A stretch of 64,000 bases of DNA from Azolla caroliniana. Its lineage: Eukaryota > Plantae > Polypodiophyta. Every line of letters starts with the position of its first letter. Position 1 is the stretch's first letter. Location of the stretch: the NCBI GenBank assembly GCA_043228905.1, contig JBHGNT010000002.1:1426001-1490000 (forward strand). The letters are read 5' to 3'. Of the stretch, positions 1,326 to 64,000 are shown piece after piece. Made by a program: the position numbers and the translations under genes. The notes under the pieces were generated by a model that saw only the letters and a program-made list of their open reading frames with translations, did no database searches and was not told the origin of the DNA.

Positions 1326-1356
<31 letters not shown>

Positions 1357-11220: not shown

Positions 11221-11253
<33 letters not shown>

Positions 11254-13490: not shown

Positions 13491-13514
13491 CTCTCTCTCT
13501 CTCTCTCTCTCTAG

Positions 13515-21800: not shown

Positions 21801-22575
21801 TATCAACTGGGCCTTGACTATGTTGTCGTGAAGATTTTCGTCCATAGGGGGAAACCGGGGTGGAATGGGCAAGTCAGTGGTGTGCAACATGTGGCACACG
21901 TATACTAGGAAATGGTGTATAGAAAAAAAGAGGGGAAATTTTATCCCACATTGTAAGGTCCCTCCCTCCTTGGGCTATAAAAGGAAGGGAGGGATCACTT
22001 ATGAAGGGGTTGCCTATTTTGCGTATGAGGGGTATACCACTTAATCTAGAGTTCTTACCGTTTTAGGGTTAGGGTTTCCTTATTCATCTTCGGTTAGGGT
22101 TTTCTCATAGTCATTTGGTGCGGCCCATGTGGCCACTGTTGTTGTAATCATTCGTTTGATTTAATATAACTTGTTGAGTATCTTGCCACCGTCGATCTCT
22201 CCTTCTATGTCATGGTCTTATTCTTTCCTCTTCTCCTCTTGAGCTAAGCTTCCATATCATATTTTATTCTTTCTCCTCTACTCCCTAGTCCAAGACCCCC
22301 GCGGTCTCGCCTTGGATCCTACACGTACTCGCAGAATACCACGCCATATTTGGTGAACTCGACGTGAAGAGGCAGCAAGGGAGCATGGAGATGGAAGAAG
22401 ACTTCGACTTCGAGGAGATGATGGCAAAGATCGTGATGGAAGCCGGACGGAAGATGGCGAAGCGAGATGCGGCTCAACAAGCCGTCGAAAGGGTGGTCGA
22501 TCGAGTTGGCTAGTTCAACGGGAATGAGGTCCCAAATTTTTTGAGAGCTTACAATGCCGAGATGACGGAGCGGGG

Positions 22576-39990: not shown

Positions 39991-41255
39991 AGGATTGTAG
40001 GATCAATTGTCACCAATTGCTATATAGTCTTTGTAAAGAATCAAGAGATGGATTCTGTGCAGCGGAATAGATATGAACTGTGTGTGTGTATGAGAGAGAG
40101 AGAGACAAGGAGTAAGACACAGAGAATACGCAAGGTAAAGTATATTAATAAAGGAGAAAGACTTAACGTTATACAAAGTGGGAGGAGGGTGCTTTATATA
40201 GTCACCCTCTCTCTTCATTAACTGCAAGACTCATGGAGCATGGGGAATGTGAAAGCTCATAAGTTATGTATCATAGAATATGATTCTATGAATCATACTA
40301 AATGCTAGAGTACAAAGTGGTGACATAATCGTGACTCTTGACCGTTGGAGTGTCTATTCACTCTCAAGGTGAGTTTTCACACTAGACCAAGTTGAGCTTG
40401 ATTCTCAACACGCCCCCTCAAGCTCAAGTAGGGTTGGTTTCAGACGGTATCCGAAATCCGCTTCGACTCCCATTTCGGAGTCCGCGTCGACTCGCATTTA
40501 TGCGGAGTTGCGGAATCCGTGCTCCAGCTTGCGTTGTGCGTAGTTGCGAAGTCTATGCTTCGGCTTGCGTCTTTCTTCGCGGCTTTGCGCGGTGTCGTGA
40601 AGAAAACCGTCCACAAGCGGAATCGGTGCATCGGAGCGTAGGAACCGGCTCTTCATGCACGTGCGTCTTATGTTGTACATAGAAGATCCTAGGTAGGTAG
40701 ATTCGGTAGGTAGGAAGTTAATGGGAAACGACTCCTTCCTTGCCTATAAAAGGAGGGAGATGAGGAGGAGATGGGATCGCGTAGTAAGAGAGGATGAAGT
40801 GCTGTCGGATTGTGGGCCGAAGGCTTCTCTCTCTTCCAAACTCCATAGCTTCTTTCTGTGCAGGTTTCGGGAGGCTCGCGTTGCTCCGAGGAAAGCCCGA
40901 GTGCTTCCGGCAACACCTCCAACCTACTCCTTTCTTTCTCTGCGTTTACGAACAGGCATCGGCATCTGTTCGCCGGCCTGTTCGATTGTAACCGACTTCG
41001 TGTTCCCGTTGTTTGTCTTTGTTAATACATACATACATTCGTGTCTCTCTGTGTCGCTGTCCCACTCGCGTCTTTGTGTCGAAGGGCCGTGTCCCTGTGG
41101 TTCTACGCTCGCATCTAGTGGGTCTCTTCCCTTCTCCTTTCTCTCTTGTTCTTCGGTACAAGACCCCCGAGGTCCCGCCTCATTCCACGCAACCACGAGG
41201 AATACCTCGACATCTTGGTGAACCCGACGTGAAAGAGGCGGCAGAAGAGCAGAAG

Positions 41256-43367
41256 ATGAAGGGGTCGGATCTTGCGGGGGCCATGGCTTCGGCCGTGGAT
41301 CGGATACTAAGCGCGCGCGAGGGCACCGGCGCCCTCGACAGAGCCATTGAGGTGGTCGTCGGTACGATCGGCCGGTTCAGCGGAAAGGATGCCATGAAGT
41401 ATTTGGCGTCCTACGGGGCAGAAATGCTGATGCGGGACATTCCGGAAGAGAGGCGTCTTGCCGGGTTCCCTCGAGTGGCGATGCCGAGCATCCATGCGGA
41501 GGTGCTCGAGGTACGGGCGGAGAGCCGTACCTGGGAGGAGTTCGAAGGCTGACTCCTAGAGAAATACGGGTTGGATGACGCGCTCTGGCTTTCGAAACGG
41601 GACTTCATGGAATGGGTGGAGTCCTCCGGCAAAGGAAGAAACGCGTCGGCACTCCTTCGGGAGTTTGAGGAACGCTTTGCGCGCCTCTTGGCGCTTGACC
41701 AAACCGTTCTGGATACGAGCCGGGTCCTACTGTTCGTCAAGTCGGTGGACGAGCGGGACCGGGATCAAGTCGGCTCCTTGCTAGAAACCGAAGACGGGCT
41801 GACGACCGACTGGACGGCGGTTAAGAGAGTATGTGGCCGTTTCGACAAACGGCGAGAATGGGCTGACAACGGGGCGGCTGGTGCGGGCTCTGTCACAGCA
41901 AGGAGGCTTGAACCGGCACCGCAAGGGCGAAGGGAAGAAACCCTGGAATGGCTCGAAACCAGTCCGGCTTCGACCGGCATGGTTAGTGGCTCGTCCGGAG
42001 GAACAGCGCTGGAGGAGTTGACGCGGGCGATAAAGGATCTCCAGATCGCCCAGACTCGAAGGGAAGGCGGCGAACCGGCTCGTGACCGACGGCCGGTAGC
42101 AGGGAACAGGTGTATGTGGTGCGAGGAGGTCGGCCACATCCGGAAGGACTGCGGCGATTTCGCAGAAGCGTTGAGGAACCGGGTGGTGTACCTGTGGGAA
42201 GGCCGGGTGCACGCCGGCGACACCAGAAGGGCCCTAAACCGAAACGACGGGCGAGGAGGAATGAAGAGACTGATGGAAGAGGCAGCGGCCCGACACGTGG
42301 AGGCCATTCACTACTTGGCGTCGGCTGGCATTCGGGTCGAGGGCAGCGAGGCCCGAAAGGAGGGCAAAGACGGATTCTGGTCGGCAATGCTGGGAGGTCT
42401 TGCCGGCGCACGGCTAAGGAAAGATGAAACGGACCGCGCTGAGAGACGGGTCCGGGATTTAACCGGGTGGAGCGATCCGGTCGAGGAGAAGACAGGCTTC
42501 GTAGAAGCCGCCTGCCGGAACTACGAGGCTCTGGTAGAAGACAAACGAGTGGGGAAAGCCGGAGCAGCCGGACCCTCACATCGGTACGAGACCCGATTCG
42601 GGCAACGACGGAACGATGCCGGTGGGTCCAGCTCGCAAGATAACCCCAGGAAGGGCGGATACCGACTGGGGACGGAAATAGAAAGGACTACGGACCTACG
42701 AAAGGTCCTAGAAGAACGAATCCTCGACAACAAAGTGGAGCTGTCATTGCGAGAGGTGCTAGGGATCGCCAAGAAGGAGTTCCACGACTCCATTGTGGAC
42801 CTGGTGAAATGGAAGAGGCTGTCGATGGAGACGGAACCGGAAAGACCGGTGGAGGTGCGGACGACGCACATCGACGACATGGCGCTGGAAGATGAGTGGG
42901 CGGAGAGCCACTATTCAAGGCCGCACTGGGCCCGAGCGACCACGGAGACCCCGGTAAAGATCGGGGATGTTCAGGAACCGGTGGTGGCATTGGTGGACCA
43001 CGGTTCGGAAATAAACCTGATGTCCATGGACTTCTATAAGAAGGGAAAGTGGCCGATCAACACCAAGCACGGGTGGAAGATACGGGTGGCGATGCGCGCC
43101 ACCGAGGAACTGCACGGGGCCTGCCCGAACGTGCGAGTCAAGATTGACCAGCACTTCTTCGTACAGGAGACGTCCTCGCACCCGGTCATATTAGGGGAAC
43201 CATACATCACGAAGGCGCGAATGGAGACCAAAGTGCTGGACAACGGTTCGGCCTACGCAAGGGTCAAAAGCCAGGACGGGCGCCATTCGGTCCAATTTCT
43301 GACGGTGCGACCGAACCACGAGCGAAACCGCGAATCCCTCGGTGGCGAGAACCGGGAGGATTTTTAG
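41256..43367 (+). pseudogene. P1 ORF1: Gag plus aspartic protease (one premature stop at 41550)
   Basis: CMWCEEVGHIRKDC knuckle; ALVDHGSEINLMS..VILGEPY protease; ends ...REDF*. Confidence 0.88.
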
Positions 43368-46300
43368 AGAGGGCTGCCAAGGCATGGGGCCGAGACAGTC
43401 CGGACACTCGGGAAAGACCCCACAGTTGTACGATAGGTAGAAAATTCTGCTTCTCCAACAACGGAGGGTGTATGATGGTCGGCATCATTGGCCGAGAAAG
43501 GGCAAGGGCGGAAGTGCGACTTCGAGCGTGCGGAGTTCTCGGCCTGAACGAGGAAATCAGTAGGGCCGTGGAGGTGGTCTCCTTCGACGACACCTTGGGG
43601 ATGCTGAGGAAGGTAGCCGGAGAGGACCTTAACGAAGACCGGATGATACCGGTATGTTCCGAAGAGATGTAAGAAGTCATCGCGAACTTCAGCCAGGGGC
43701 TCCGGTCGGATCGGACGGCCCGAGTTAGCACGAAGTACAAGACTGTGGACCGGAAGGTAAGGCCAGTCGCGGCACCCTTACCGGAGGGCAGCGAGTCCCG
43801 AATCAGAGGGGTTGCGTCGGACCCCAGTTTACGAGATCTGGCCTGCATAGGACACAACTTCACCGACGGGACGCTCCGGGAGCTCAAGATCGGTGGGGGC
43901 GGGTTCCTACTGCCGGCGGAGGAAGACCGGTTTCAGAGAATGCTCGGAAGGCACCGGAAAGCCTTCGCATTTTCGCCGGAAGAGATCGGGTGCGTAGACC
44001 CGACAATCATGGAGCCGATGGTGATATTCACGGTACCACATGTACCATGGAATCTCAAGCCGATTCCGGTACCGAGAGCTCACATCCCGAAGTTGATGGA
44101 GCTATTGAGGCAGAAAGTAGATATGGGCATTCTCGAACCGTCGAGTGCCCCATACTCGAACCGATGGTTTACCGTACCAAAGAAAAACGGAACAATGCGC
44201 TTCATTCAAGACCTGCAGCCGGTCAATAGAGTGACCATTCGGAACGCAGGAATCGGACCGACCATAGACGAGTTCGCGGAGGCCTTCGCCGGAAGGTCGA
44301 TTTACTCGGTCGGTGATCTATACTCGGGGTACGACCAATTCCAGCTAGCCGTGGAGAGTAGAGACATTACGACGATGCGAACTCCCCTCGGCCTAGTGCG
44401 AATGTGTACCCTGCCACAAGGAGGGACCAACTCGGTGGCCCACATGGTGAATGCAATGAACAAGGTACTGAGGGATTGCATCCCGGACATCACCATGCCA
44501 TTTTTGGACGACATCCCGATAAAGGGGTGCCCGGTGGAAGAGAAGGACGAGACAGTCGGGCCGGACGGATGCCGGCGATTCGTGGCAACACACATCGACG
44601 ACTGCGAGAAGGTGCTACAAAGGCTAGAGGATGCGAGGCTCACCTTCTCCGGGGAGAAATCGGCCTTCGGGCAATCAGAAATCCTGGTGGTCGGACACCT
44701 GTGTGGACCGTTTGGCCGGCAGCCGTCTCCGGCAAAAGTAGAAGCCATCTCCGCGATGAAGACCGACTGTAGCTCGGTTACGGAAGTTCGGAGGTTCCTG
44801 GGGGCATGCGCATTCTACCAGATATGGATCCCGCACTACGCCCACGTTGCGGAGCCGCTATACGGGTTGCTGAAGAAGGGGCGGAAATTCGAGTGGCGAG
44901 ACGAGCACACAGAGTCGGTCCGGAAGCTGAAGGAAGCTCTTGCGGCAGCACCGGCGCTCCGGAAGGCTGTCTACGAGAAGGGTACCCCGGTATACATAAC
45001 GGTGGATACGAGTCCGACCGGGATCGGATGGGTCGTCAACCAAGAAGACGAGGACGGCATTCGGTTCCCGATCCGATTCGGCGCGAAAGTCCTCAGTGAG
45101 CGACAACGAGGGTACGCCCAGGTTAAACGCGAACTCTAGGGTATCATTTCGGCAGTAAAGGCCGACAACGACTACCTGATCGGGACTGAAGTGATTATCG
45201 AGACGGATTGCCTGCCAATTCTCGGCATGGTTTCCGGATGCGCGACACCGGACCTGGTGATGCTCAGGTGGATAGCGTACATTAAGTCCTTGGATCCGGA
45301 AATACGACACATTTCCGGAAAGGACAACGCCATGGCCGACATGCTTTCGAGGGCGAGGTTTGATAACAAGGGCGGCATGGTTTCGGAGGACGAAGAAGTC
45401 GGCGTGGACTTCTTCGAGGCGGCGTATGTGACGACCGATGGGACGAGCACTCCAGATCGGTGGATTTTTGAGGACGATGACGCCGGATGCGTCATGGACG
45501 AAGGACGAGGCCAACCGGATCCGGAAGAAAGCTTACCGATTCTTTCTCCGGGACGGATACTTATGGAAGCACCCGAAGAAGAGGAGCGACGTCCCGCTCC
45601 GGGTGGTGGCGATGAAGAAAGAACAGGAGGAGCTGCTGACGGCCTACCACGACAGCCCTTGGGCCGGACACCGTGGAACGTGGGCCACGTTCAAGAAGAT
45701 AAAGGGGAAGTACTGGTAGCCGGGACTGTACCGGGACGTGCATCGGTTCGTGACAACTTGCGAGAGCTGTCAGATGCACTCCGTAGTCCGACATCGGGAC
45801 GAGCTTCACCCTACGTACCCTCCGACCATCCACTTCAAATGGATGGTAGACCTGGTGACGATGCCGATAGGAGTAGGACAGATGCGGTATCTGGTCCTGG
45901 CTCGGGAAGATCTGACGAACCAGGTGGAAGGCCGGGCCAATCAGAACAAGACGACTGCGGCCGTATGTCGGTTCCTGATCGAGGACGTGATATGCCGGTA
46001 CGGGTGCGTCGGGAAGATCGTGGCTGATCGCGGGGAGTTGGACGCCGAAGAGGCCGAGGAGTTGTTCGACCGGCTAGGAGTCAAGCTCTCGCTTACCACT
46101 GCGTACAATCCGGAGGCGAATGGGAAGGTGGAGCGCGGACACGGACCGATCGTCAAGGCATTAGTACGGGCATGCAGAGGTCAAGTCGGGAACTGGCCGC
46201 GGCTGCTGCCTTACGCGTTGTGGGCGGACCGAACTACGCACAGTTCGGTAACCGGATTCATGCCGGTAGAGCTCATGTTTGGGCAGAAGCCGATCATGTC

Positions 46301-46789
46301 GATGGAATGTACGATCTCCTCATGGGCCATCGTGGACTGGAGGGACGGGACGAGATGAGTAGGGAGGAACTGTTGGCGGTGCGCATACGGCAGATCGAGC
46401 GAAGACCGGAGGATGTAGAACAAGCTACGGAAAAGCTTCGGGTGGCAAGGACGAGGAACAAAGCCCGGTTCGACCGAACGCACTGGCTCCGACCGAAGAA
46501 GATCGAGGATGGCAACTGGGTGCTAGTCTACGACAACAGCCTCGACAACCAACACCGAGCAACACGGAAGTTCGCAAGAAGGTGGTTCGGGCCTTACGTA
46601 GTACAAAACGCCAACGACAACGGGACGTACCATCTGGCGGAACTCGACGGCACGAGAATGGCGATACCGGTAGCTTGGAAGCGGATCAAAGCGTTCAAGA
46701 AGTGTCACGACGACGGGCCGGATCCGGTTAACCTAGACTACGACAACGAACGATCCGAAACCGAGGAAGAACCGACGGGCGGGGAATGA
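43358..46789 (+). pseudogene. P1 ORF2: RT-RNase H-integrase, starting in the -1 frame (stops and frameshifts present)
   Basis: WFTVPKKNG..DLYSGYDQ..LPQGGTNS..PFLDD, TVDTSPTGIG..ETDC, GHRG..CESCQ, VADRGE..NGKVERGH, WFGPY. Confidence 0.9.
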
Positions 46790-49700
46790 AGGTTGGACCG
46801 GTTTTCTCCGTCCCAACTCAATTTGGCGCATGCCGGTGGATGCGCGGTGTCGTGAAGAAAACCGTCCACAAGCGGAATCAGTGCACCGGAGCGTAGGAGC
46901 CGGCTCTTCATGCACGTGCGTCTTATGTTGTACATAGAAGATCCTAGGTAGGTAGATTCGGTAGGTAGGAAGTTAATGGGAAACGGCTCCTTCCTTGCCT
47001 ATAAAAGGAGGGAGATGAGGAGGAGATGGGATCGCGTAGTAAGAGAGGACGAAGTGCTGTCGGATTGTGGGCCGAAGGCTTCTCTCTCTTCCAAACTCCA
47101 TAGCTTCTTTCTGTGCAGGTTTCGGGAGGCTCGCGTTGCTCTGAGGAAAGCCCGAGTGCTTCCGGCAGCACCTCCAACCTACTCCTTTCTTTCTGTGCGT
47201 TTACGAACAGGCATCGGCATCTGTTCGCCGGCCTGTTCGGTTGTAACCGACTTCGTGTTCCCGTTGTTTGTCTTTGTTAATACATACATACATTCGTGTC
47301 TCTCTGTGTCGCTGTCCCACTCGCGTCTTTGTGTCGAAGGGCCGTGTCCCTGTGGTTCTACGCTCGCACCTAGTGGGTCTCTTCCCTTCTCCTTTCTCTC
47401 TTGCTCTTCGGTACAAGACCCCCGAGGTCTCGCCTCATTCCACGCATCCGCGAGGAATACCTCGACAGCGGTAGATCAGCTCTTCACGGCTTCGTTTCGT
47501 GGTTGCGGAATCCACGCGTTATTGCGTAGTGTCTTCAGTACTCCCCCTCAAGCGTGGTAGGTTAGGGATCGTCAATCTGAGATCGGTCATGAATTACCAT
47601 AGCTTGTCGGCTCCTAAGGCTTTAGTGAAGATGTCGGCCGTTTGAAGATTTGTGCTAATGTATTGTAGGTCGACATCGCCAACTAGAACATGCTCTTGGA
47701 TAAAGTGATAGTGTAGTTCGATGTGCTTTGTCCGCTCGTGGAACACCGGGTTCCGAGCCAGATAGATACTGCTCATGTTGTTCGCAATAAAGGGAAGTCG
47801 GATCCTTGATGGGTATGCCCAGATCCTTGAGTATCCTTTTGAGGCATACGGTTTCACATGTGGCCACTGCCGCGCCCCTGTATTCCGCCTCTGTGCTCGA
47901 AAGAGCGATGGTTGGTTGTTTTTTGCTGCTCCAAGATATTGCTCCGTTGTCGAGGGAAAAAACAAATCCGGAGGTCGATCTTCTATCGGCTTTGTAGTTG
48001 GCCCAATCGGCATCTGTGTACCCCTCGAGTCGTATTGGCATTGCGGTCTTGTAGAGGATGTCGCAATCCATCTTGCCGCTCACGTATCGTAGAACTCGCT
48101 TAGCGCAGTCCAAATGAGTATCACGCGGTGTTTGCATGAATTGACTAAGGAGACCGACCAGATAACTGAGATCGGGTCAAGTGATCGTGAGGTAGATGAG
48201 ACTCCATATGAGTTGCTGATACTGAGTTGGCTCACACACTTTGGTGCCGGAGTTTGAATCTAGTTTGAGATTGCGATCGGGCGGGGTTTCCGCAGATTTG
48301 CACTCAGCCATACCGAACTTGTATAACAAGTTGAGGATGTAGTGCCGTTGAGAGATCATGATTCCGGCCGGGGTCCAAATTACCTCGATGCTGAGGAAGT
48401 AGTGGAGCTCCTTCATGTCCGTCATCTCGAACTTGTCAGAAAGGAGGGATTTGACTTTATTGATTTCAACGAGATGCGCACCTCCAATGACTAGGTCATC
48501 CACATATAAGATGATGACGATCGGACTTGCGGAATCGCTTCATATGTAGAGGGAGTTGTCCGATTTTGACATACGGAAGCTGATTTGATGAAGATATTCC
48601 ATTATCTTCGAATGCCAAGCACGTGGTGCTTGCTTGAGGCCGTAGAGTGGCTTCTTGAGTCGGCATACAGCTTTCGGATGGGTGCTCGAGTTGAAGTCGG
48701 GTGGTTGTATCATGTACACCTCTTCTAATTCTCCTTGTAGAATGACATTCTTGACGTCCATTTGATTGAGGTGCCACCCTTTCGCCGCGGCAAGCGCAAT
48801 TACGGTCCGTACCGTCGTCATCTTTGCTACCGGGGCAAAGGTCTCTTCGTAGTAAACTCTATGCGTTTGTGCGTAGCCTTTCGCTACGAGTCGCGCTTTG
48901 TAGCGGTTGACGGAACCGTCGGCGTTGTACTTCACTTTGTAAATCCATCTGCATCCGATCGCCTTTTTGTGTGGTGAGGTGGGAACGAGATCCCACGTCT
49001 CGTTCTTGCGTAGTGCCTGCATCTCCTCGTTCATGGCTTTGATCCATCGCGGATCCTTGGCTGCTTCGGAAAATGTTTCCGGCTCACGTATTGTCACCAC
49101 CTTCATCATAAAGGCATAGTGATATGCCATGTAGTCGTTGTAGCCGAATCGGCTGGCCGGATTCTTTTCACGGGTGGAGCGACAGAGCTTTTCATTTGCA
49201 GAGATGAGGGCTTTCTTAGCTCCGATTGGTACATCGAAGCCACCGAACTCACTGTCAAGTGAATGAGTCGTCTCATCGTCGTTGAAGCGATCGTCTTCGT
49301 ATTCCGTCATTTTCGCCTTGCCTTTGTCCATCTTCGGGCTAGGTCGTGATGTGCTTTGATCGCTCGGGGGCTCTTGTGGCCCACTTAGCCTTGTGGTAAT
49401 CGGGTTATCTTCGAACATGTCTTCGAGGGGATCTCCACCTTCTTGCTTTTGTTAAGCCGGTTCCGCGTCGATCGGTATCGAAGTCAGAATCTTCTCTGGT
49501 GTGTACCAGGATGTGGATTCGTCGAACATGACATCTCGACTTACTTGAACTTTTCGGGTAGATGGGTTGTAGAATTTGTACTCCTGTTGTTCGAGTGAGT
49601 ATCCTACGAGGATACATTTCTCCGACTTTGGATCTAGCTTTTGCCGCTTTACGTCAAGTATGTGCACGTATGCTATCACACCGAATATCCGGGTGTGCGA

Positions 49701-50128
49701 TAAGTCCGGCTTCTTTCCGAAGTATTTTTCGTGCGGAGTGACCTCGTGCACTTCGGATGTTGTGCACCGGTTCATTAGGTAAACGACCGTATTTGCAACT
49801 TCGGCCCAATATGACTTGGGCATATGCTTCTCGTTCATCATGGCCCGCACTACTTCGAGGATGTGCCGATTTTTGCGCTTGGCTACTCCGTTTTGTTGCA
49901 GAGTGTGTCGGCAAGTGAATTCTCGCCGAATTCCTTCCTTTTGGAGATACACCGTGAAATCATCCGAGAAGTACTCCTTGCCGCCATCTGATCGAAAGCA
50001 TTGTACATGATGACCAGTGGCTTTTTCGACTTCGTTTTTAAACTTTTGGAAGTATCCAAACACTTCGCTCTTTTGCCGCATTAGATAGAGCCACGTGTGC
50101 CTAAAGAAGTTGTCGATGAAGAGCACGT

Positions 50129-52464
50129 TGTCGTGAAGAAAACCGTCCCTTAGCGCAATCGGTGCATAGCGTGCGTGAACCGGCTCTTCACGCGTGCGCA
50201 CCCTTAATGTATATAATAGGGAATTAAGTACGTAGGTATATCCTGGGTAGTTAGATTCGGTAGGTAGGAAGTAAATGAGGGAGACGGCTCCCTTCTTGAC
50301 GATATAAAGGAGAGGGAGACGCAAGGAGAAGGTATCGCGTATTGAGGAGGATGAAGTGTTATCGGACTGTAACCGAACGCTTCTCCTCTGTTCATTCTCC
50401 ATCGCTCTTCTCTGCAGGATTTCGGGAGGCTCACACTGCTTCGAGGAATGCCCGTGTGCTTCCAGCAGCACCTCCACCCTATCCCCCTTTCGTGCGCAGA
50501 CGAGTAGGCATCGGTATCTGTTCGCCGGCCTGTTCGGTTGTAACTGCTCTCGTGCTCTGTTGTTTTGTGTCATTTGATAATATACAAACATTCGTGTCTC
50601 TTTGTCTCTGTGTCCGTTTGTGTTTTCTGCGTTGACGGGCCGTGTCCCTGTGTTTCTTGCTCATACGTTACCGGTCGTCTCTCTCTTTCTCTTTCCCTTC
50701 CTATCACCTGCTCTTCGGTCCAAGACCCCGGTGGTCCCGCCTCGTTTCTCCACGCACGCGCGTAGTAACGCGACATATTTGGTGAATCCGACGTGAACAA
50801 GGCGGTAGAGGAGCAGAAGATGAGGGGGTCGGATCTTGCAGAGGCCATGGCTTTGGCCGTGGACCGGATAGTGAGCGCGCGCGAGGGCACCGGCGCCCTT
50901 GACAGGGCTATTGAGGCGATCGTCAGTACGATCGACCGGTTCAGTGGAAAGGATGCCACGAGTTATTTGGCGTCCTACCGGGTGGAGATGTTGATGAGGG
51001 ATATTCCGGAAGAGAGGCGTCTTGCCGGATTCCCTCGAGTGGCGATGCCCGACATCCATGCGGAGGTGCTCGAAGTCCGGGCAGAGAGCCGGACCTGGGA
51101 GGAGTTCGAAGGACGGCTCCTGGAGAAATATGGGTTGGATGACGCGCTTCGACTTTCGAAGCGAGGCTTCATGGAGTGGGTGGAGTCCCCCAACAAAGGA
51201 AGAAATGCGTCGGTACTCCTCCGGGAGTTTGAGGAACGCTTTGAGGTCGATCGGACCATTCTGGACACAAGTCGTGTCCTACTATTTGTCAAATCGGTTG
51301 ACGCACGGGATCGGGGGCAAGTTGGCTCCTTACTGGAAACCGAAGACGGGCTGACGGCCGACTGGGCCGCGGTAAAAAGAGTTTGCGGCCGTGCGTCAAA
51401 TCGGTTGACGCACGGGATCGGGGGCAAGTTGGCTCCTTACTGGAAACCGAAGACGGGCTGACGGCCGACTGGGGCCGCGGTAAAAAGAGTTTGCGGCCGT
51501 TTTGACAAACGGTGGGAGTGGGCTGATACAGAGGCGACCAGGGTGGGACCTGTCGCAGCAAGGAAGCTCGAACCGATACCGCAGGCGCGAAGGGAAGAGA
51601 AACGGGAGTGGCTCGAAACCGGTTCGGCTTCAACCGGAGTGGTCAGAGGCTCGTCCAGGGGAACAGCTTTGGAAGAGTTGACACGAGCGGTAAAGGATCT
51701 CCAGATCGCCCAGGCTCAGAGGGAAGGCGGCGATCAAGCTCGTGACCGACGGCCTCCGGCAGGAAGTAGGTGCATGTGGTGCGACGAGGTCGGAGGCAGC
51801 GAGGCCCGGAAGGAGAGCAAAGCCGGGTTTTGGCCAACGGTGTTGGAAGGCCTCGCCGGTGCCCGACTAAAGAGAGACGAGGCGGACCGCGCAGAGAAGC
51901 GGGTCTAGGAGGTAACCGGGTGGAGTGACCCGGTCGAAGAAAAGACGGGTTTCGTCAAAGTAGCTTCCCAGAACTACCAGGCTCTGGTCGAAGACAAACG
52001 GGTAGGTAAAACCGGAGGGGCTGGACCCTCACAGAGATACGAAACCCGATTCGGGCCGAAACGGAATGAGGTCAGTGAGTCCAGTGCCCGGGATAACCAC
52101 AAGAAGGGCGGATACCATTTGGGCACGGAGATCGAAAGGACCACGGACCTACGAAAGGTCCTGGAAGAACGAATCCTCGACAGCAAAGTGGAACTGTCGT
52201 TGCGGGAGGTGCTCGGAATCGCCAAGAAGGAGTTCCACGACTCCATCGTGCACTTGGTGAAGAGGAAGAGGCTGTCGACGGAGGCAGAACCGGAAAGGCC
52301 GGTGGAGGTGCAGACGGCGCACATAGAGGACATGGCGCTGGAAGACGAGTGGGCGGAGAGCCACTATTCGAGGCCACACTGGGCCCGAGCGACCACGGAA
52401 ACCCCGGTGAAGATCGGAGATGTTCAAGAACCGGTGGTGGCGCTGGTGGACCACGGTTCAGAAA
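50129..52464 (+). mobile_element. G: 5' part of an older P1-family gypsy element inserted in the integrase of F; interrupted by H
   Basis: LTR TGTCGTGAAG...CGACA at 50129-50775; PBS TGGTGAATCCGACGTGAA at 50780; gag from 50820 with a ~107-bp tandem duplication (51288-51500) and a knuckle deletion; stops at VDHGSE where H begins. Confidence 0.9.
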
Positions 52465-52953
52465 TGTTGAGCGGCAAGCTCAACCGGAGCCGGATCGGCT
52501 GAATAAGCCGGAGCCGGTAAGCGAGACGGATCGGGCGAAACGGATCGGTATGACGGTGAGCAACCGAACCGGCAAGCAGTGGAGGCCGGGTGCAATCCGT
52601 AACCGGAAGTCCAATTGGAAACCTAGTATAGGATAGACTACTAGGTAGCTATAGTCTCGTAGTAAGTGTCAGATGCTCGTGTGAGCATTGAAGTACATGG
52701 TACTTCTGTCAATCCCAAGAGGACTTGTATAAATAGTGCTACTTAGCATAGTGTGTATACACAGTCTTGATATAATTTTGAAATTGTGTTTTGCTCTCTC
52801 TCTCTCTCTCGCTCTCTGTTGTTCTCTGTTTTACGCTTCCGCAAACACTTATGTTTACATGGTATCAGAGCGCGAGGGTTGAGAACCTCTGCTGCAGACA
52901 TTTACTCTTGAGAAGAAAACCCTAACAGGTCGAAAACAGACATAGTAGAAGAC

Positions 52954-55900
52954 ATGGATAGAGGCATGGCTACGTCGCTCCCGGTGGAGAAGCTCGACAG
53001 GAGCAACTACGCATCCTGGTCTTACAAGATGCACCAGTACCTGCTTGGACACGGGTACTGGAGTTATGTTGAAGGAGCGAATGATGCAGCGCCCGACTCG
53101 GCACACAAGGACTTCCCGGTATGGGAACAGGCGGCAAGCAGGGTGATGTACTGCTACGCGTCCAGTGTCGGCGATCAGCTGCTCAGCCACATCCGTGACG
53201 CCAAGATACCGAAGGATGCTTGGGGGAACCTGAAAAAGGTTTTCACCGCAAGCACCACTGCCCGGAAGCTGCAACTCAGACAGGAGTTGAACAATGTTCG
53301 ACAGAAGAACATGTCCATGGCAGACTACACGGGCCGGATAAAGGAGATCTACGACTCGCTCGCCTCTATCAATGTTACCGTAGAGGAAGACGAGATGGTG
53401 CAAGTATGTCTCGGAGGCCTGGCGTCCAAGTTCGGAGCGTTCCGGACTGCGGTGTGTACAAGGGAGAATACCCCCTCATTCTTCGACTTATAGTCGATGC
53501 TCCTTGTAGAGGAGAACCACGCCAGTGCATCTACCAGTGCATCCTCGGACAGCCGAATGTTGTACATGGGAACGGATCGGCTCCGTGGGCGTGGTGGAAG
53601 AGGTGGGTCGACACGCAATGGAGGCGGCCAGCAAGAGCAGGAACGGAGGCACTATGAGCGTGCCGACAGCAGTTCCAGGACTTCCACAAGCAGGGGGAGT
53701 CAAGGCGGTGCCGGAGGCCAGCAAGACAAATCCGCTACGGAATGCTGGTACTGTGGCAAAAAAGGCCACAGGGAAAGCGAGTGCTGGAAGAAGCGTGCCG
53801 ATTCGGACAAATCCGGATCCGGCAAGACCGGTAAGGATGGCTGGCAAAACTCGCACTACGCAAACGGATCAGGAGGATCCGGAACTGGAAAGGCCGGTAA
53901 GGGGCCAGCCTTGGTGATGAATCACAAGGCAAACTCAATGAAGAAGACCACTTCCAAAACGGAGGAAGTGTGGTATGTTGATTCCGGCGCGTCGAACCAC
54001 ATGACGAGCCACAAAGAGTGGTTCTCCTTTCTGGAGAAACCGGATCAACCAGGAGTAGTCGAAACCGGAGACGACACTCCTCACCCAATCGTGCACGTCG
54101 GAGAAGTCCCTCTAAGCCACGTCGGACAGAAAGGGAAGCTGATGAACGTATTACACGTTCCGACAATCACGAAGAACCTGGTGTCCGTCGGTCAGATTGT
54201 CGACCAGGGGATGCAGGTGCGGTTTACGCACCTTGGGTGCTTCATTGAGGATGAGGGCGAAGTCATTGCGCAAGGGCGCAGAGACGGGAGGATGTTTATC
54301 CTCAACACCAACGACTTTGGCACCGCTCTGTTCACGAAACGACAGAAGGTCGAGTCGGACATCGACCTATGGCACAAGCGGATAGGCCACAACAACTACC
54401 GGAGGCTTCAAGACCTGCAAACGAAACAAGTCGTTTTCGGTTTGCCAAAGTTCAGCGGCCGGAGAGCCGACATTTGTGAAGCCTGCCAACTTGGGAAGCA
54501 ATACCGGCTTCCATTCCCCACCGAACGGAACCGGAGCCGTAACAAGCTCGATTTCATCCATTCGGATGTGTGGGGACCGGCACAAAGTGTAAGCCTTGGC
54601 GGGAGCCGATACTTCGTCTCCTTCATCGACGACTATACTCGACAGACTTGGATCTACCTCATTGAGCGGAAGAGCGAAGTCTTCGACTGTTTCCGGAGCC
54701 TTCAGAAGATGGTGGAACGGGAATCGGAGAGGAAGATCAAATGCCTTCGGTCGGATGGCAGAAAGGAATATTTTTCCGGCCAATTCACTAGTTATCTGCA
54801 GCATAAGGGAATTCGGCAAGAGTTCAGCTGCAGATACACACCGGAGCAAAACGGTGTGGCCGAAAGGAAGAACCGGACACTCGTCGAAGCGGCAAGGGCA
54901 ATGCTGGAGGAGTCGAGCATGCCCCGGTTCTACTGGGCGGAGGCGGTCCGGATGGCCGTCTACATACAAAACCGCATTGGTGACAAGGTGTCAGCTCATG
55001 AGCTGTATTTCGGGCGCAAGCCGAACTTAAGACACCTTCGGATATTCGGCAGCATAGCGTATGTGCATGTGCCGGATCAGAAGCGAAGAAAGCTGGATGC
55101 AAAATCGGAAAAATGCATCCTAGTCGACTATGCTCAAGAGCAAAAGGGGTATAAGTGCTTTAACCCCCGGACGAAGGAAGTCCGAGTTAGCCGGGATGTC
55201 GAGTTCGATGAATCGGCATCCTGGTACTCCGTACCGACTCCGACTTCCGATCCCGACCCAATGCCGAAAGATCAGGCCAGTGAGCCGGAATTAGCCCTAA
55301 CAGAGGATGATGAAGCCGGGACTCAAGATGAGAGTCCGGAATCGTTACGGTTGAGTGGACCGAACGAGCGACTGAGTCAGTTGGACCAGTCGGATGAAGA
55401 GACGGCAAGTGGTGGAGACTCTGTCGTGCTCTCCCCGCGCAAGGAACCAAGGAAACGGTTCACGCGCAAAGAGAAGGGGAAGAGGAAGATGCCGGAATTC
55501 GAAACCGACAACGATGAGTCGGATCGGTGCATATCCGACTCCGGAAAGGAGAAAGGCGGATCTTCGGCAACGAAGACAGAACTGGCCAAGAAAGGCCTCA
55601 AATCAGGTGACGGTGCGTTGCGCCGATCAACCCGTCAGAAGGATCCCGTCATGCGGTACAGGTACAATGAATACATGGCGCATCATTATGCGTACATGAC
55701 TAAGGTGACAGAAGTGCGTGAGCCGGAGAGCTACGCAAAAGCGGCAAAGGACGCAAATTGGCGTGCCGCTATGGACGAAGAAATGCGGGCACTCGATGCC
55801 AACGAAACTTGGGACCTAGTTGATCCTCCCCGTCACTGTAAACCGATCGGATGCAAGTGGGTGTACAAGGTCAAGTACAACGCCGACGGTTCTGTTAACT

Positions 55901-56332
55901 GGTACAAAGCCCGGTTAGTGGCGAAGGGATACGCGCAGACCCATGGAATCGACTACGAGGAGACCTTCGCTCCTGTGGCGAAGATGACGACGGTTCGTGT
56001 GGTACTGGCGGTTGCTGTGGCAAGGGGGTGGCATCTTCACCAGATGGATGTGAAGAACGCCTTCCTTCAAGGAGAGCTTGAAGAAGAAGTCTTTATGACT
56101 CAGCCCCCCGGATTTCAATCGGAGATGAACAAGTCGGCGGTATGCCGACTGAAGAAGTCGCTTTATGGCTTGAAGCAAGCCCCCCGAGCTTGGAACGCTA
56201 AGATCACGCACCGGCTGCGTAAGCTGGGGTTTGCTGTCTCTAAGTCGGACTCTTCGTTGTTCATCCGGCAAGGCTCTGACGGTCCGGTATGTATACTCTT
56301 GTATGTGGATGATTTAGTCATCACCGGACCGG
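52954..56332 (+). pseudogene. Copia H gag-pol (stop at 53491; RT split just after LYVDDLVITG)
   Basis: CWYCGKKGHRESEC, WYVDSGASNH, IHSDVWGP..LRSDG, LLYVDDLV. Confidence 0.9.
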
Positions 56333-59300
56333 TGTGCTGATATTCCTCGCGGATGCGTGGAATGAGGCGGGGCCACGGGGGTCTTGTACCGAAGAGCAAG
56401 AGACAAAGGAGAAGGAAAGGGGCCCACTACGTGTGGGCGTAGATTCACAGGGGCACAGCCCTTCGACACAAAGACGCAAGTGGGACACCGACGTAGAGAG
56501 ACACGAATGTATGTATATATATATTAACAAGGACAAACAGAAAGAAGCACGAAGTCGGTTACAACCGAACCGGCCGGCGAACAGATGTCGATGCCTGTTC
56601 GTAAACGCTCAGAAAGAAAGGAGTAGGTTGGAGGTGCTGCCGGAAGCACTCGGGCATTCCTCAGAGCAGCGCGAGCCTCCCGAAACCCTGCGCCGAAAGA
56701 AGCTACGGAGTATGGAAGAGAGAGAAGCCTTCGGCCGACAACCCGACAGCACTTCGTCCTCTCTAACCGCGATCCCTTTCCTCTTCCCCGTCTCCCTCCT
56801 TTTATAGGCAAGAAAGGAGCCGTTTCCCATTAACTTCCTACCTACCGAATCTACCTACCTAGGATCTTCTATGTACCTAATTCTCTCTTATGTACAACAT
56901 AAGACGTACGTGCATGAAGAGCCGGTTCCTACGCTCCGGTGCACCGATTCCGCTTGTGGACGGTTTTCTTCACGACATCCGCCCCCACCTAACCGCGCAT
57001 CCACCGGCATGCGCCAAATTGAGTTGGGACGGAGAAAACCGGTCCAGCCTTCCTCGCCCGTCGGTTCTTCCTCGGTTTCGGATCGTTCGTCGTTGCGGTC
57101 CAGGTTAACCGGATCCGGCTTGTCGTCGTGACGTTTCTTGAACGCTTTGATCCGTTTCCCAGCTACTGGTATCGCCATTCTCGTGCCGTCGAGTTCCGCT
57201 AGATGGTACGTCCCATTGTCGTTGGCGCTTTGTACCACGTAAGGCCCGAACCACCTTCTTGCGAACTTCCGCGTCGCTCGGTGCTGGTTGTCGAGGCTGC
57301 TGTCGTAGACTAGCACCCAGTCGCCTTCCTCGATCTTCTTCGGTCGGAGCCGGTGCGTCCGGTCAAACCGGGCTTTGTTCCTCGTCCTTGCCACCCGAAG
57401 CTTTCCCGCAGCCTGCTCCACGTCCTCCGGTCTTCGCTCGAGCTGTCATATACGCGCCGCCAACAGTTCCTCCCAGCTCATCTCGTCTCTCCAGTCCACA
57501 GTTGCCCATGAGGAGATCGTACGTTCCATCGGCATGATCGGCTTCTGCCCAAACATGAGCCCTGTCAGCATGAATCCGGTCACCGAACTGTGCGTAGTTC
57601 GGTCAGCCCACAACGCTTAAGGAAGCAGTTGCGGCCAGTTCCCGACTTGCCCTCCGCATGCCCGAACTAACACCTTGACGATCGGTCCGTGTCCGCGATC
57701 CACCTTCCCATTCGCCTCCGGATTGTACGCAGTGGTAAGCGAGAGCTTGACTCCTAGCCGGTCGAACAGCTCCTCGGCCTCTTCGGCGTCCAACTCCCCG
57801 CGATCAGCCACGATCTTCCCGACGCACCCGTACCGGCATATCACGTCCTCGATCAGGAACCGACATACGGCCGCGGTCGTTTTGTTCTGAAGGGCTCGGC
57901 CTTCCACCTCGTTCGTCAGATCTTCCCGAGCCAGAACCAGATACCGCATCTGTCCCATTCCCATCGGCATCGTCACCAGATCTACCATCCATTTGAAGTG
58001 GATGGTAGGAGGGTACGTAGGGTGAAGCTCGTCCCGCTATCGGACTATGGAGTGCATCTGACAACTCTCGCAAGTTGTCACGAACCGATGCACGTCCCGG
58101 TACAGTCCTGGCCACCAGTACTTCCCCTTTATCTTCTCGAACGTGGCCCACGTTCCACGGTGTCCAGCCCAAGGGCTGTCGTGGTAGGCCGTCAGCAGCT
58201 CCTCCTGTTCTTCCTCCATCGCCACCACCCGAAGCGGGACGCCGTTCCTCTTCTTCGGGTGCTTCCATAAGTATCCGTCCCGGAGAAAGAATCGGTATGC
58301 TTTCTTCCGGATCCGGTTGGCCTCGTCCCTCGTCCATGACGCATCCGACGTCATGGTCTTTATGAAACCACCGATCCGTAGCCACTCGCCGTCGTACTTG
58401 CTCTCGTCGAAGCCGTTGAGTGCCGGAGTGCTCGTCCCATCGGTCGTCACGTACGCTGCCTCGAAGAAGTCCACCCCGACTTCTTCGTCCTCCGAAACCA
58501 TGCCGACCTCGTCATCAAACCTCGCCCTCAAAAGCATGTCGGTCATGGCGTTGTCCTTTCCGGAAATATGTCGTATTTCCGGGTCCAGAGACTTGATGTA
58601 CGCTATCCACCTGAGCATCGCCAGGTCCGGTGTCGCACATCCGGAAACCATGCCGAGAATTGGCAGGCAATCCGTCTCGATAATCACTTCTGTCCCAATC
58701 AGGTAGTCTTTGTGGGCCTTTCCTGCCGAAATGATACCCCAGAGTTCGCGTTTAACCTGGGCGTACCCTCGCTGTCGCTCATTGAGGACCTTCGCGCCGA
58801 ATCAGATCGGGAACCGAATGCCGTCCTTGTCTTCTTGGTTGAGGACCCATCCGATCCCGGTCGGACTCGTATCCACTGTTATGTATACCGGGGTACCCTT
58901 CTCGTAGACAGCCTTCCGGAGCGCCGGTGTTGCCGCAAGAACTTCCTTCAGCTTCCGGATCGACTCCGTGTGCTCGTCTCGCCACTCGAATTTTTGCCCC
59001 TTCTTCAGCAACCCGTATAGCGGCTCCGCAACGTGGGCGTAATGCGGGATCCATATGTGGTAGAATGCGCATGCCCCTAGGAACCTCCGAACTTCTGTAA
59101 CCGAGCTACAGTCGGTCTTCATCGCGGAGATGGCTTCTACCTTTGCCGGAGACGGCTTCCGGCCATATGGTCCACATAGGTGTCCGACCACCAGGATTTC
59201 TGATTGCCCGAAGGCCGATTTCTCCCCGGAGAAGGTGAGCCTCGCATCTTCTAGCCTTTGTAGCACCCTCTCGCAGTCGTCGATGTGCGCTGCCACGAAT

Positions 59301-62300
59301 TGCCGACATCCGTCCGGCCCGAGTGTCTCGTCCTTCTCTTCCACCGGGCACCCCTTTATCGGAATGTCGTCTAGAAATGGCACGGTGATGTCCGAGATGC
59401 AATCCCTCAGTACCTTGTTCATTGCATTCACCATGTGGGCCACCGAGTTGGTCCCTCCTTGTGGGAGGGTACACATTCGCACTAGGCCGAGGGAAGTTCG
59501 CATTGTCGTAATGTCTCTGCTCTCCACGGCTAGCTGGAACTGGTCGTACCCCGAGTACAGATCACCGACCGAGTAAATCGACCTTCCGGCGAAGGCCTCC
59601 ACGAACTCGTCTATGGTCGGTCCGATTCCTGCGTTCCGAAGGGTCACTCTGTTGACCGGCTGCAGATCTTGAATGAAGCGCAATGTTCCGTTTTTCTTTG
59701 GTACGGTAAACCATTGGTTTGAGTATGGGGCACTTGACGGTTCGAGAATACCCATATCGACTTTCTGCCTCAATAGCTCCATCAACTTCGGGATGTGAGC
59801 TCTCGGTACTGGAATCGGCTTGAGATTCCACGGTACATGCGGTACCGTGAATATCACCATCGGCTCCATGATTGTCGGGTCTACGCACCCGATCTCTTCT
59901 GGTGAGAACGTGAAGCCTTTCCCGTGCCTTCCGAGCATCCTCCGAAACCGGTCTTCCTCCGCCAGCAGTAGGAACCCGCCCCCACCTATTTTGAGCTCCT
60001 GGAGCGTCCCGTCGGTGAAGGTGTGTCCTATGCGGACCGGATTTCGTAAACTGGGGTCCGACGCAACCCCTCTGATTCGGGATTCGTTGCCCTCCGGTAA
60101 GGGTGCCGCGACTGGCCTTACCTTCCGGTCCACAGTCTTGTACTTCGTGCTAACTCGGGCCATCCGATCCGACTCGAGCCCCTGACTGAAGTTCGTTATG
60201 ACTTCATACATCTCTTCGGAACATACCGGTATCGTCCGGTCTTCGTTAAGGTCTTCTCCGGCTACCTTCCTCAGCATCCCCAAGGTGTCGTCGAAGGAGA
60301 CCGCCTCCACGGCTCCGCTGATTTCCTCGTCCGGGCCGAGAACTCCGCACGCTCGAAGTCGCACTTCCGCCCTTCCCTTTTCTCGGCCAACGATGCCGAC
60401 TATCATACACCCTCCGTTGTTGGAGAAGCAAAATTTTTTACCTATCGTACAGGGTTTCTTCGGTTTCGGTTCTATCGTACAGCTGTGGGGTCTTTCCCAA
60501 GTGTCCGGACTGTCTCGGCCCCACGCCTTGGCAGCCCTCTCTAAAAATCCTCCCGGTTCTCGCCACCGAGGGATTCGCGGTTTCATTCGTGGTTCGGTCG
60601 CACCGTCAGAAATTGGACCGAATGGCGCCCGTCCTGGCTTTTGACCCTCGCGTAGGACGAACCGTTGTCTAACACCTTGGTCTCCATCCGCGCCGCTGTG
60701 ATGTATGGTTCCCCTAATATGACCAGGTGCGAGGACGTCTCCTGTACGAAGAAGTGTTGGTCAATCTCGACGTCGCCGATCTTGACTCGCAGGTTCGGGC
60801 AGGCCTCGTGCAGTTCCTCGGTGGCGCGCGTCGCCGCCCGTATCTTCCACCCATGCTTGGTGTTGATCGTCCACTTTCCCTTCTTATAGAAGTCCATGGA
60901 CATCAGGTTTATTTCCGAACCGTGGTCCACCAGTGCCACCACCGGTTCCTGAACATCTCCGATCTTCACCGGGGTCTCCGTGGTCGCTCGGGCCCAGTGT
61001 GGCCTCGAATAGTGGCTCTCCGCCCACTCATGTTCCAGCGCCAAGTCTTCGATGTGCATCGTCCGCACCTCCACCGGTCTTTCCGGTTCCGTCTCCGTCG
61101 ACAGCCTCTTCCGCTTCACCAAGTCCACAATGGAGTCGTGGAACTCCTTCTTAGCGATCCCTAGCACCTCCCGCAATGACAGCTCCACTTTGTTGTCGAG
61201 GATTCGTTCTTCTAGGACCTTTCGTAGGTCCGTGGTCCTTTCTATTTCTATCCCCAGTCGGTATCCGCCTTTCCTGGGGTTATCTTGCGCGCCGGACCCA
61301 CCGGCTTCGTTCCGTCGTTGCCCGAATCGGGTCTCGTATCGTTGTGAGGACCCGACCGCTCCGACTTTCCCCACTCGTTTGTCTTCTACCAGAGCCTCGT
61401 AGTTCCGGCAGGCGGCTTCTACGAAGCCCGTCTTCTCCTCGACCAGGTCGCTCCACCCGGTTATTTCCCGGACCCGTCTCTCAGCGCGGTCCGCTTCATC
61501 TTTCCTCAGCCGTGCGCCGGCGAGGCCTTCCAGCATTGCCGACCAGAATCCGTCTTTGCTCTCCTTTCGGGCCTCGCTGCCCCCGACCCGAATACCGGCC
61601 GTCGCCGAGTAGTGGATGGCCTCCACGTGTCGGGCCGCTGCCTCTTCCATCAGTCTCTTCATACCTCCTCGCCCGTCGTTCCGGTTTAGGGCCCTTCTGG
61701 TATCGCCGGCGTGCACCCGGCCTTCCCATAGGTACACCACCCGGTTTCTCAACGCCTCTGCGAAATCGCCGTAGTCCTTCCGAATGTGGCCGACCTCGTC
61801 GCACCACATGCACCTGTTCCCTGCTGCCGGCCGTCGGTCACGAGCCGGTTCGCCGCCTTCCCTTCGAGTCTGGGCAATCTGGAGATCTTTTATCGCCCGC
61901 GTCAACTCCTCCAGCGCTGCTCCTCCGGACGAGTCATTGACCATGCCGGTCGGAGCCGAACCGGTTTCGAGCCACTCCCGGGTCTCTGCCCTTCGCCCTT
62001 GCGGTGCCGGTTCAAGCCCCCTTGCTGTGACAGAGCCCGCTCCGGCCGCCCCGTTGTCAGCCCATTCTCGCCGTTTGTCGAAATGGCCACAGACTCTCTT
62101 AACCGCAGCCTAGTCGGTCGTCAGCCCGTCTTCGGTTTCTAACAAGGAGCCGACTTGATCCCGGTCCCGCTCGTCCACCGACTTGACGAACAGTAGGACC
62201 CGGCTCGTATCCAGAACGGTTCGGTCAAGCGCCGAAAGGAGCGCAAAGCGTTCCTCAAACTCCTAGAGGAGTGCCGACGCGTTTCTTCCCTTGCCGGGGG

Positions 62301-63355
62301 ACTCCACCCATTCCATGAAGTCCCGTTTCGAAAGCCGGAGCGCGTCGTCCAGCCCGTATTTTTCTAGGAGTCGGCCTTCGAACTCCTCCCAGGTACGGCT
62401 CTCCACCCGTACCTCGAGCACCTCCATATGGATGCTCGGCATCACCACTCGAGGGAACCCGGCAAGACGCCTCTCTTCCGGAATGTCCCGCATCAGCATT
62501 TCTGCCCCGTAGGACGCCAAATACTTCATGGCATCCTTTCCGCTGAACCGGCCTATCGTACCAACGACCACCTCAATGGCTCTATCGAGGGCGTCGGTGC
62601 CCTCGCGTGCGCTCAATATCCGATCCACGGCCGAAGCCATGGCCTCCGCAAGATCCGACCCCTTCATCTTCTGCTCTTCTGCCGCCTCCTTCACGTCGGG
62701 TTCACCAAGATGTGCTGATATTCCTCGCGGATGCGTGGAATGAGGCAGGGCCACGGGGGTCTTGTACCGAAGAGCAAGAGACAAAGGAGAAGGAAAGGGG
62801 CCCACTACGTGTGGGCGTAGATTCACAGGGGCACAGCCCTTCGACACAAAGACGCGAGTGGGACACCGACGTAGAGAGACACGAATGTATGTATATATAT
62901 ATTAACAAGGACAAACAGCAAGAAGCACGAAGTCGGTTACAACCGAACCGGCCGGCGAACAGATGCCGATGCCTGTTCGTAAACGCTCAGAAAGAAAGGA
63001 GTAGGTTGGAGGTGCTGCCGGAAGCACTCGGGCATTCCTCAGAGCAGCGCGAGCCTCCCGAAACCCTGCGCCGAAAGAAGCTACGGAGTATGGAAGAGAG
63101 AGAAGCCTTCGGCCGACAACCCGACAGCACTTCGTCCTCTCTAACCGCGATCCCTTTCCTCTTCCCCGTCTCCCTCCTTTTATAGGCAAGAAAGGAGCCG
63201 TTTCCCATTAACTTCCTACCTACCGAATCTACCTACCTAGGATCTTCTATGTACCTAATTCTCTCTTATGTACAACATAAGACGTACGTGCATGAAGAGC
63301 CGGTTCCTACGCTCCGGTGCACCGATTCCGCTTGTGGACGGTTTTCTTCACGACA
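56333..63355 (-). mobile_element. I: full-length P1-family gypsy element, youngest layer of the F>G>H>I nest
   Basis: 645-bp LTRs at 56333-56977 and 62711-63355 (about 4 differences); 4-bp TSD CCGG; tRNA-Trp PBS at 62690-62707; PPT GGTTAGGTGGGGGCGGA at 56978-56994. Confidence 0.95.
57040..62667 (-). pseudogene. Element I gag-PR / RT-RH-IN with several premature stops
   Basis: Same domains as P1; stops near 62263, 62111, 60583, 58802, 58037 and 57617. Confidence 0.9.
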
Positions 63356-64000
63356 CCGGGTCTTCCCGAAATCAACCGCGTCAAGTCCCAGTTGTCGGAC
63401 GCATTCGAAATGAAGGACCTGGGGGACCTTCATTATTTTCTTGGGATCGAAGTGCTCCGGACCCCCGACGGCATATTGCTCTCACAACGACATTACGTGT
63501 TGAATATGTTGTATAAGTTCGGCATGACGGATTGCCGACCTGTCTCCACACCCCTGGACCGGAACCAGAAGCTTCGTCCCAACTCCGAACCGGCCTGCAA
63601 TGAGAAACGGTTCCGACAGGTTGTCAGAAGCCTGATCTACTTAACCATCACTTGACCTGACATCAGCTATCCGGTTGGCATGGTAAGTCAGTTCATGCAG
63701 AAGCCGACCGTGGAGCACCTTCAGTGCGCGCAACGAATATTACGGTATGTCAGCGGCACTAAGGATCGGGGACTGCTATACCGGCGAGGTATACCCGAAG
63801 AGCTTGTCGGTTACACAGATGCGGACTGGGCCGGCGATGCGTCTAATCGCCGCTCCACTTCCGGATACATGTTCTCCATAGGTAGCGCGGCCGTTGCGTG
63901 GAGCAGCAAGAAGCAGCCCACAGTGGCTTTGTCAAGCATTGAGGCTGAGTACCGGGCCGCTATCGTTGCCACTTGTGAAGCCATCTGGCTTCGGCGACTG

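What the first reader, a model, noticed from the sequence alone, without database searches (positions are those of the whole stretch)
40589..63359. A gypsy family whose 4-bp target sites are centred on CpG: possible (methyl-)CpG-directed integration
Seen: P1 TSD GCGG (40589-92 and 47468-71), I TSD CCGG (56329-32 and 63356-59), G left flank ACGT (50125-28), C left flank ATGT (21820-23). Three of four are nCGn, and ATGT is what ACGT becomes after 5mC deamination in an old insertion. The five copia target sites here (CTATG, CCTAT, CGGGG, AGTCG, AGAAA) share no pattern. All four gypsy copies sit inside other TEs, and the integrase has no chromodomain. Inference: the integrase prefers a central CpG, possibly methylated, which would be a chromodomain-independent route into heterochromatin. 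Caveats: n=4, two sites are seen on one side only, the hosts are CpG-rich, and a flexible central pyrimidine-purine step is a known general preference of integrases making 4-bp TSDs.
Basis: partly seen in the sequence, partly recalled or inferred. Interest (0 to 1): 0.8.

Follow-up and report, generated by a model that had tools for sequence, protein, structure and literature searches.

The report
Jumping gene that inserts at CpG
This plant retrotransposon family almost always inserts with a CG pair at the centre of its four-base target, a habit already published for the moss Phygy lineage to which it likely belongs; whether the CG must be methylated is untested.

Summary
All four window flanks are as described. 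In metagenome contigs from a related host, 60 of 64 distinct 5' flanks of this LTR family have a central CG, against 3.3% background. None has TA, and 3 of the 4 exceptions are CpG decay products. The motif is VCGB, mostly ACGT, so generic pyrimidine-purine flexibility is refuted.

The preference is published: Neumann et al. 2019 report 186 Phygy elements with 4-bp NCGN duplications. This family matches Phygy in TSD, tRNA-Trp-like primer site, lack of a chromodomain and Physcomitrium gag relatives. It is shorter than the published size range, and tree placement could not be tested.

Methylation dependence is untested. The integrase has no reader domain, and sites are no richer in CpG than more distant flanking DNA. 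Target density alone (5.7 per kb in gene DNA, 23-39 in copias) would bias insertion into other elements. The scan earlier noted NCGN-targeting LTR elements in another, probably fungal, genome.

The parts
40589..40592 (+). P1 left target site duplication GCGG
   Evidence: empty site has one GCGG
40593..47467 (+). Element P1, 6875 bp, Ty3/gypsy; LTRs 40593-41212 and 46848-47467 (14 mismatches in 620); gag-protease and pol broken by stops and frameshifts; no polypurine tract
41216..41232 (+). Primer binding site, likely tRNA-Trp
   Evidence: after the TGG, 13 of 14 bases match a published human tRNA-Trp antisense probe
41553..43367 (+). gag-protease frame with DUF4100
   Evidence: Physcomitrium patens relatives at 28-55% identity
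43673..45139 (+). Reverse transcriptase and RNase H frame
   Evidence: named relatives mostly Riccia, also Adiantum and Calypogeia
45561..46789 (+). Integrase: zinc finger, core, GPY/SH3-type C-terminal domain, short acidic tail, no chromodomain
47468..47471 (+). P1 right target site duplication GCGG
50125..50128 (+). G left flank ACGT (one side only)
50129..52465 (+). Element G: 5' LTR 50129-50775, primer site and gag part, interrupted by a copia; the rest was not seen in the window
56329..56332 (-). I target site duplication CCGG
56333..63355 (-). Element I, 7023 bp; LTRs 62711-63355 and 56333-56977 (4 mismatches in 645); polypurine tract at 56978-56992; lies inside a copia RT gene
63356..63359 (-). 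I target site duplication CCGG
21820..21823 (+). C left flank ATGT, likely a decayed ACGT (one side only)
   Evidence: decay is inferred
21824..22346 (+). 5' LTR of element C (TTTT subfamily), followed by a primer site
31525..31562 (+). Remnant of C's 3' LTR behind a polypurine tract

Best explanation
This is a chromodomain-less Ty3/gypsy family, likely of the Phygy lineage, that inserts at the palindromic four-base target VCGB (best ACGT), and its integrase likely reads that sequence itself without needing the C to be methylated. Shown: the target motif, the 4-bp duplication and the absence of a chromodomain. Inferred: the integrase would bend and unstack the central CG step and exclude T and A at the edges, as foamy virus integrase does at VYRB, with the central step narrowed to CG. 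Also inferred: host gene DNA is CpG-poor and young elements are CpG-rich, so this sequence rule, helped by selection against insertions in genes, would pile copies into other elements with no chromatin reader.
For: 60 of 64 distinct 5' flanks have a central CG against 3.3% background; 2 of 36 chance pattern hits do. 15 of 16 separate 3' flanks have it (16 of 17, less L116, whose four bases also count in the 5' set). T at the first target base 0 of 60 against 35% expected, ACGT 26 of 60 against 3.8 expected. Both LTR subfamilies agree, 38 of 39 and 22 of 25. The loose ends behind the LTR at 47467 begin ACGT in 3 of 4 laid runs; the fourth shows the primer site. The foamy virus consensus is VYRB, with T and A disfavoured at the edges (PMC4422553). 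CG choice holds in CpG-poor flanks, 19 of 21, and near-site CG density equals distant density. VCGB density is 5.7 per kb in the gene region and 23-39 per kb in five copia stretches. Drosophila errantiviruses have a CGCG target in a host that, from my own knowledge, lacks CpG maintenance methylation.
Against: No methylome or biochemical data, so independence from methylation is inferred. Host gene DNA is CpG-depleted (observed/expected 0.2-0.7 over 1-14000), which suggests widespread methylation, so even CpG-poor sites may have been methylated. The 64 sites come from one series of short-read assemblies of a related host, which favour unique flanks, and are read on one side only. 94% CG is much stricter than retroviral YR use (about 63% above a 22% background), so something beyond bendability acts and I did not identify it. 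The elements are 6.9-7.0 kb, below the published Phygy range of 7656-9968 bp.
Confidence: 0.72

Rival explanations
1. The integrase prefers methylated CpG, so it is steered into silenced DNA without a chromodomain.
For: The CG specificity is near absolute. All four window copies lie in copia elements. The host shows CpG depletion. [quoted passage not shown]
Against: Only about 30 acidic residues follow the SH3-type domain, and Pfam shows no reader domain. Sites occur in CpG-poor DNA and in or near gene sequence: L083 a broken UDP-glucosyltransferase gene, L019 about 0.8 kb from a PIP5K exon. Target density explains nesting without methylation. CG-centred targets occur in Drosophila.
Confidence: 0.15
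2. The CG rule is intrinsic, but a host factor bound by the acidic integrase tail also tethers integration to heterochromatin.
For: Phygy into Tcn1 was the commonest repeated nested pair in Physcomitrella (PMC6911290). Phygy domains are reported enriched in predicted liverwort centromeres (PMC12885004). Four of four window copies are nested.
Against: No excess CpG richness near sites. Only 15 of 64 flanks had a repeat match near the junction in my limited comparison, though assembly bias and the small reference set make this a lower bound. The window is one TE cluster and so is not a fair sample.
Confidence: 0.11
3. The pattern is only the general preference of 4-bp integrases for any flexible pyrimidine-purine step, inflated by CpG-rich hosts.
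For: Retroviruses with 4-bp duplications favour central YR (PMC4422553). The edge rule (no T first, no A last) is shared.
Against: 0 of 64 TA, 2 CA and 1 TG, although each is twice as common as CG in the flanks. CG among YR-centred sites is 60 of 63, p about 5e-48.
Confidence: 0.01

Closest known systems
Phygy lineage of non-chromovirus Ty3/gypsy elements (Neumann et al. 2019, PMC6317226)
   Same: 4-bp NCGN duplication (186 elements), tRNA-Trp primer site (81%), no chromodomain, no extra ORF, coding sequence filling the internal part; Physcomitrium proteins match the gag-protease region.
   Different: 6.9-7.0 kb against 7.7-10.0 kb; a host whose RGLG exon has no named match above 79%; the motif is resolved here to VCGB with ACGT commonest, which I did not see stated in the passages and table read.
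Prototype foamy virus and gammaretrovirus integrases (Serrao et al. 2015, PMC4422553)
   Same: 4-bp duplication, VYRB form, T and A disfavoured at the edges.
   Different: They use any YR step, weakly; this family uses CG in 94% of sites.
Drosophila errantiviruses of the ZAM subgroup (review PMC5408687)
   Same: Gypsy-type elements with a palindromic CG-centred target (CGCG is listed among the three subgroup targets).
   Different: Animal lineage; the review says their integrases lack the GPY/F motif, which this one has.
Ginger1 DNA transposons (Bao et al. 2010, PMC2836005)
   Same: Gypsy-like integrase with a GPY/F motif; 4-bp targets CCGG (75%) or CCGT/ACGG (24%).
   Different: DNA transposons of animals; they prefer CCGG, this family prefers ACGT.

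Membership tests
Phygy | Clade membership in RT-RH-INT trees with REXdb references | not testable with these tools
   The reference FASTA and element table were too large to read. Indirect: Physcomitrium proteins match gag-protease at 28-55% and the start of pol at up to 57%.
Phygy | 4-bp target site duplication | tested here: met
   P1 and I; empty site
Phygy | NCGN target preference | tested here: met
   60 of 64; 3 of 4 in the window
Phygy | Primer binding site for tRNA-Trp | tested here: met
   13 of 14 bases match a human tRNA-Trp probe; no plant tRNA-Trp was obtained (empty)
Phygy | No chromodomain, no additional RNase H, no extra ORF | tested here: met
   no chromodomain family among the Pfam lists of the 120 hits shown, many of them partial
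Phygy | Size range 7656-9968 bp (descriptive; the paper calls size insignificant for classification) | tested here: not met
   6875 and 7023 bp
Chromoviruses (Tcn1, Galadriel) | Chromodomain at the integrase C-terminus; self-priming or tRNA-Met primer | tested here: not met
Selgy | tRNA-Ala primer site, 4.4-6.7 kb, no stated target motif | tested here: not met
Methyl-CpG-guided integration | Target cytosine methylated before insertion and required | not testable with these tools
   No methylome or assay available

The most novel reading that the evidence does not exclude
Phygy-type integrases read 5-methyl-CpG directly in the catalytic core, where they carry an acidic residue at the position of HIV Ser119 / foamy virus Ala188, and so reach silenced DNA with no chromodomain; each insertion supplies fresh CpG targets for the next.
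Probability: 0.15. Interest if true: 0.8.

Novelty: new member of a known kind. Interest (0 to 1): 0.3.

Why it matters
As it stands, this confirms a published but little-followed trait in another plant host and sharpens it to VCGB with about 94% CG. That is unusually strict for an LTR integrase, so the family is a clean system for asking how an integrase reads target bases. It also gives a simple passive route into repeats: genes lose CpG by methylation-driven decay while young elements keep it. If methylation proved to be required, it would be an integrase that reads an epigenetic DNA mark, which bears on the open question of how non-chromovirus gypsy elements end up in heterochromatin.

Tried and rejected
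No genome is held for this window, so the genome-wide count was replaced by a metagenome scan. The viral contigs pattern scan gave 3 loci with no similarity to the window, which I dropped as chance. Searches for a plant tRNA-Trp found nothing. Host identity: one RGLG exon shows a land plant but not the lineage; best named hits were 76-79%, unnamed 83-88%. The Atlas search of a relative's integrase gave only generic integrase clusters. The first read-laying showed mainly the polypurine-tract junction at the LTR start. Six contigs carry flank-LTR-flank, but only 2 of 6 have matching 4-mers; I treat the others as likely assembly chimeras and did not use them as TSD pairs. Ancestral host sequence at the four non-CG sites and at C and G could not be recovered. 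A Pfam scan of 104 flank ORFs gave hits in 13, from 11 loci, too few to class the flanks. The 1992 methylation paper was not held. No structure prediction was run.

Full report
1. Observation. The four flanks are at the stated coordinates. P1 (40593-47467) and I (56333-63355, minus strand) are full-length, with LTR pairs differing at 14 of 620 and 4 of 645 bases and with GCGG and CCGG on both sides. Uninterrupted copies of P1's host copia, seen in 4 of 4 laid runs, carry a single GCGG at that place, so the duplication is 4 bp. G and C are truncated by later insertions and give one flank each. Three CG in four has a chance of 0.0002-0.0016 at local CG frequency.

2. More sites. No genome is held. 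A scan of metagenome contigs with a pattern for the LTR start, blind to the flank, returned 120 loci; it stopped after 19 of 64 parts. 84 loci come from one series of assemblies and continue as this LTR family. A sequence-only criterion agreed with that grouping for 117 of 120. Of the 84, 19 are internal polypurine-tract junctions and 65 are 5' flanks; one duplicate (L100) was dropped, leaving 64. Central dinucleotides: CG 60, CA 2, TG 1, AG 1, TA 0, against flank backgrounds of 3.3, 7.0, 7.0, 6.1 and 6.7%. The other 36 loci are chance matches and have CG in 2. At LTR 3' ends, 16 of 17 flanks have CG, or 15 of 16 without L116, which shares its four bases with the 5' set. The edges are also chosen: T first 0 of 60 (35% expected), ACGT 26 of 60 (3.8 expected). 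The motif is the palindrome VCGB. Both LTR subfamilies obey it. In 3 of 4 laid runs the loose ends behind the LTR begin ACGT. Limits: the host of these contigs is related but is not shown to be the window's species (flank matches to window elements are 63-84%); the sites are read on one side; short-read assembly favours unique flanks.

3. What it is. The host is a land plant with an RGLG gene at about 6.3-8.4 kb; its lineage is unresolved. The element's RT relatives with names are mostly liverwort (Riccia, Calypogeia) and fern (Adiantum). Its gag-protease carries DUF4100 and matches many Physcomitrium patens proteins at 28-55%. The primer site matches tRNA-Trp at 13 of 14 bases by comparison with a human probe (PMC5737633, one passage). 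The integrase ends in a GPY/SH3-type domain and about 30 acidic residues, with no chromodomain.

4. How it likely works. Shown: target motif, 4-bp duplication, domain layout. Inferred: the intasome bends the target and unstacks the central step, as described for foamy virus with consensus VYRB (PMC4422553; passages and section 6), but here the centre is narrowed to CG. Retroviral YR use is only about 63% above a 22% background, so 94% CG needs more than bendability. Nesting needs no chromatin reader: VCGB occurs 5.7 times per kb in the gene region (1-14280) and 23-39 times per kb in five copia stretches. In the larger set, 21 of 62 flanks have under 2% CG, 19 of those 21 sites are still CG-centred, and CG density near sites equals that more than 1 kb away (2.26% against 2.30%). 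Some sites lie in or near gene sequence (L083, L019). Against my reading: the host's gene DNA is CpG-depleted, so these CpGs may well have been methylated, and nothing here measures methylation. I put methylation dependence at about 15%.

5. Comparison with what is known. Neumann et al. 2019 (PMC6317226; passages and supplement 5 read) state that Phygy elements have an insertion preference for NCGN: 186 elements, all with 4-bp duplications, 81% tRNA-Trp primer sites, no chromodomain, 7656-9968 bp. This family meets every trait tested except size (6875 and 7023 bp), which that paper calls insignificant for classification. The defining test, tree placement, could not be run because supplements 1 and 3 were too large to read; they may also already show the VCGB detail. 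So it works like Phygy and is likely a member. Jedlicka et al. 2019 (PMC6911290, passages; author name recalled) report GC-rich centres in 4-bp duplications and Phygy nested in Tcn1. A liverwort genome paper (PMC12885004, passages) reports Phygy domains enriched at predicted centromeres. CG-centred targets are also described for Drosophila errantiviruses (PMC5408687, passages) and Ginger1 (PMC2836005, passages). GingerRoot (PMC6839031, passages) has GC-rich 6-bp targets with no motif. I found no paper testing methylation dependence for Phygy in searches or in passages of a 2025 review (PMC12477314); the library lacks most subscription journals. An earlier scan note (e1-10582392) reports NCGN-targeting LTR elements in a probably fungal genome; I checked only its Ginger1 citation.

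6. Verdict. The feature is real and strong, but it is a new member of a known kind. Interest 0.3. The methyl-CpG reading remains open and would deserve about 0.8 if shown.

Noticed in passing
window:46833-46848: P1 lacks the 15-bp polypurine tract that I and 19 metagenome junctions have; its 3' LTR is preceded by the same 7 bases as its 5' LTR, which suggests a microhomology deletion or conversion from the 5' junction.
   Followed up: partly
window:46028-46045; P0032, P0045, P0052, P0056: The integrase core reads D-R-G-E or D-R-G-D after the second catalytic Asp, so an acidic residue stands where I infer, from recalled motif spacing, that HIV has Ser119 and foamy virus Ala188, residues that contact target DNA.
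   Followed up: partly
L116:247-320 and L065: L116 shows an LTR end, ACGT, then another LTR start; L065 has an LTR inserted just before the polypurine tract of a related element. The family may reuse its own duplications as targets, or these are assembly joins.
   Followed up: no
L018, L026, L077, L082: The terminal CA of the LTR reads TA in four copies, perhaps non-CG methylation decay.
   Followed up: no
window:6479-6866: A 194-bp tandem duplication (97% alike) inside the RGLG gene, including an exon end and splice donor.
   Followed up: no
window:1-14280 against 14281-64000: A sharp compositional step: GC 31-40% and CpG observed/expected 0.2-0.7 in the gene region, against mostly 46-60% and about 1 in the nested retrotransposon block.
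   Followed up: partly
window:11850-13300: A degraded repeat that resembles a LINE by eye; no Pfam hit, but matches in three metagenome flanks.
   Followed up: no
L083:1200-1803: An insertion at ACGT in or beside a broken UDP-glucosyltransferase gene.
   Followed up: partly
window:28863-29421 and 32691-32962: Internal tandem arrays (222-bp units in C's interior; 54-bp units at a copia LTR end).
   Followed up: no
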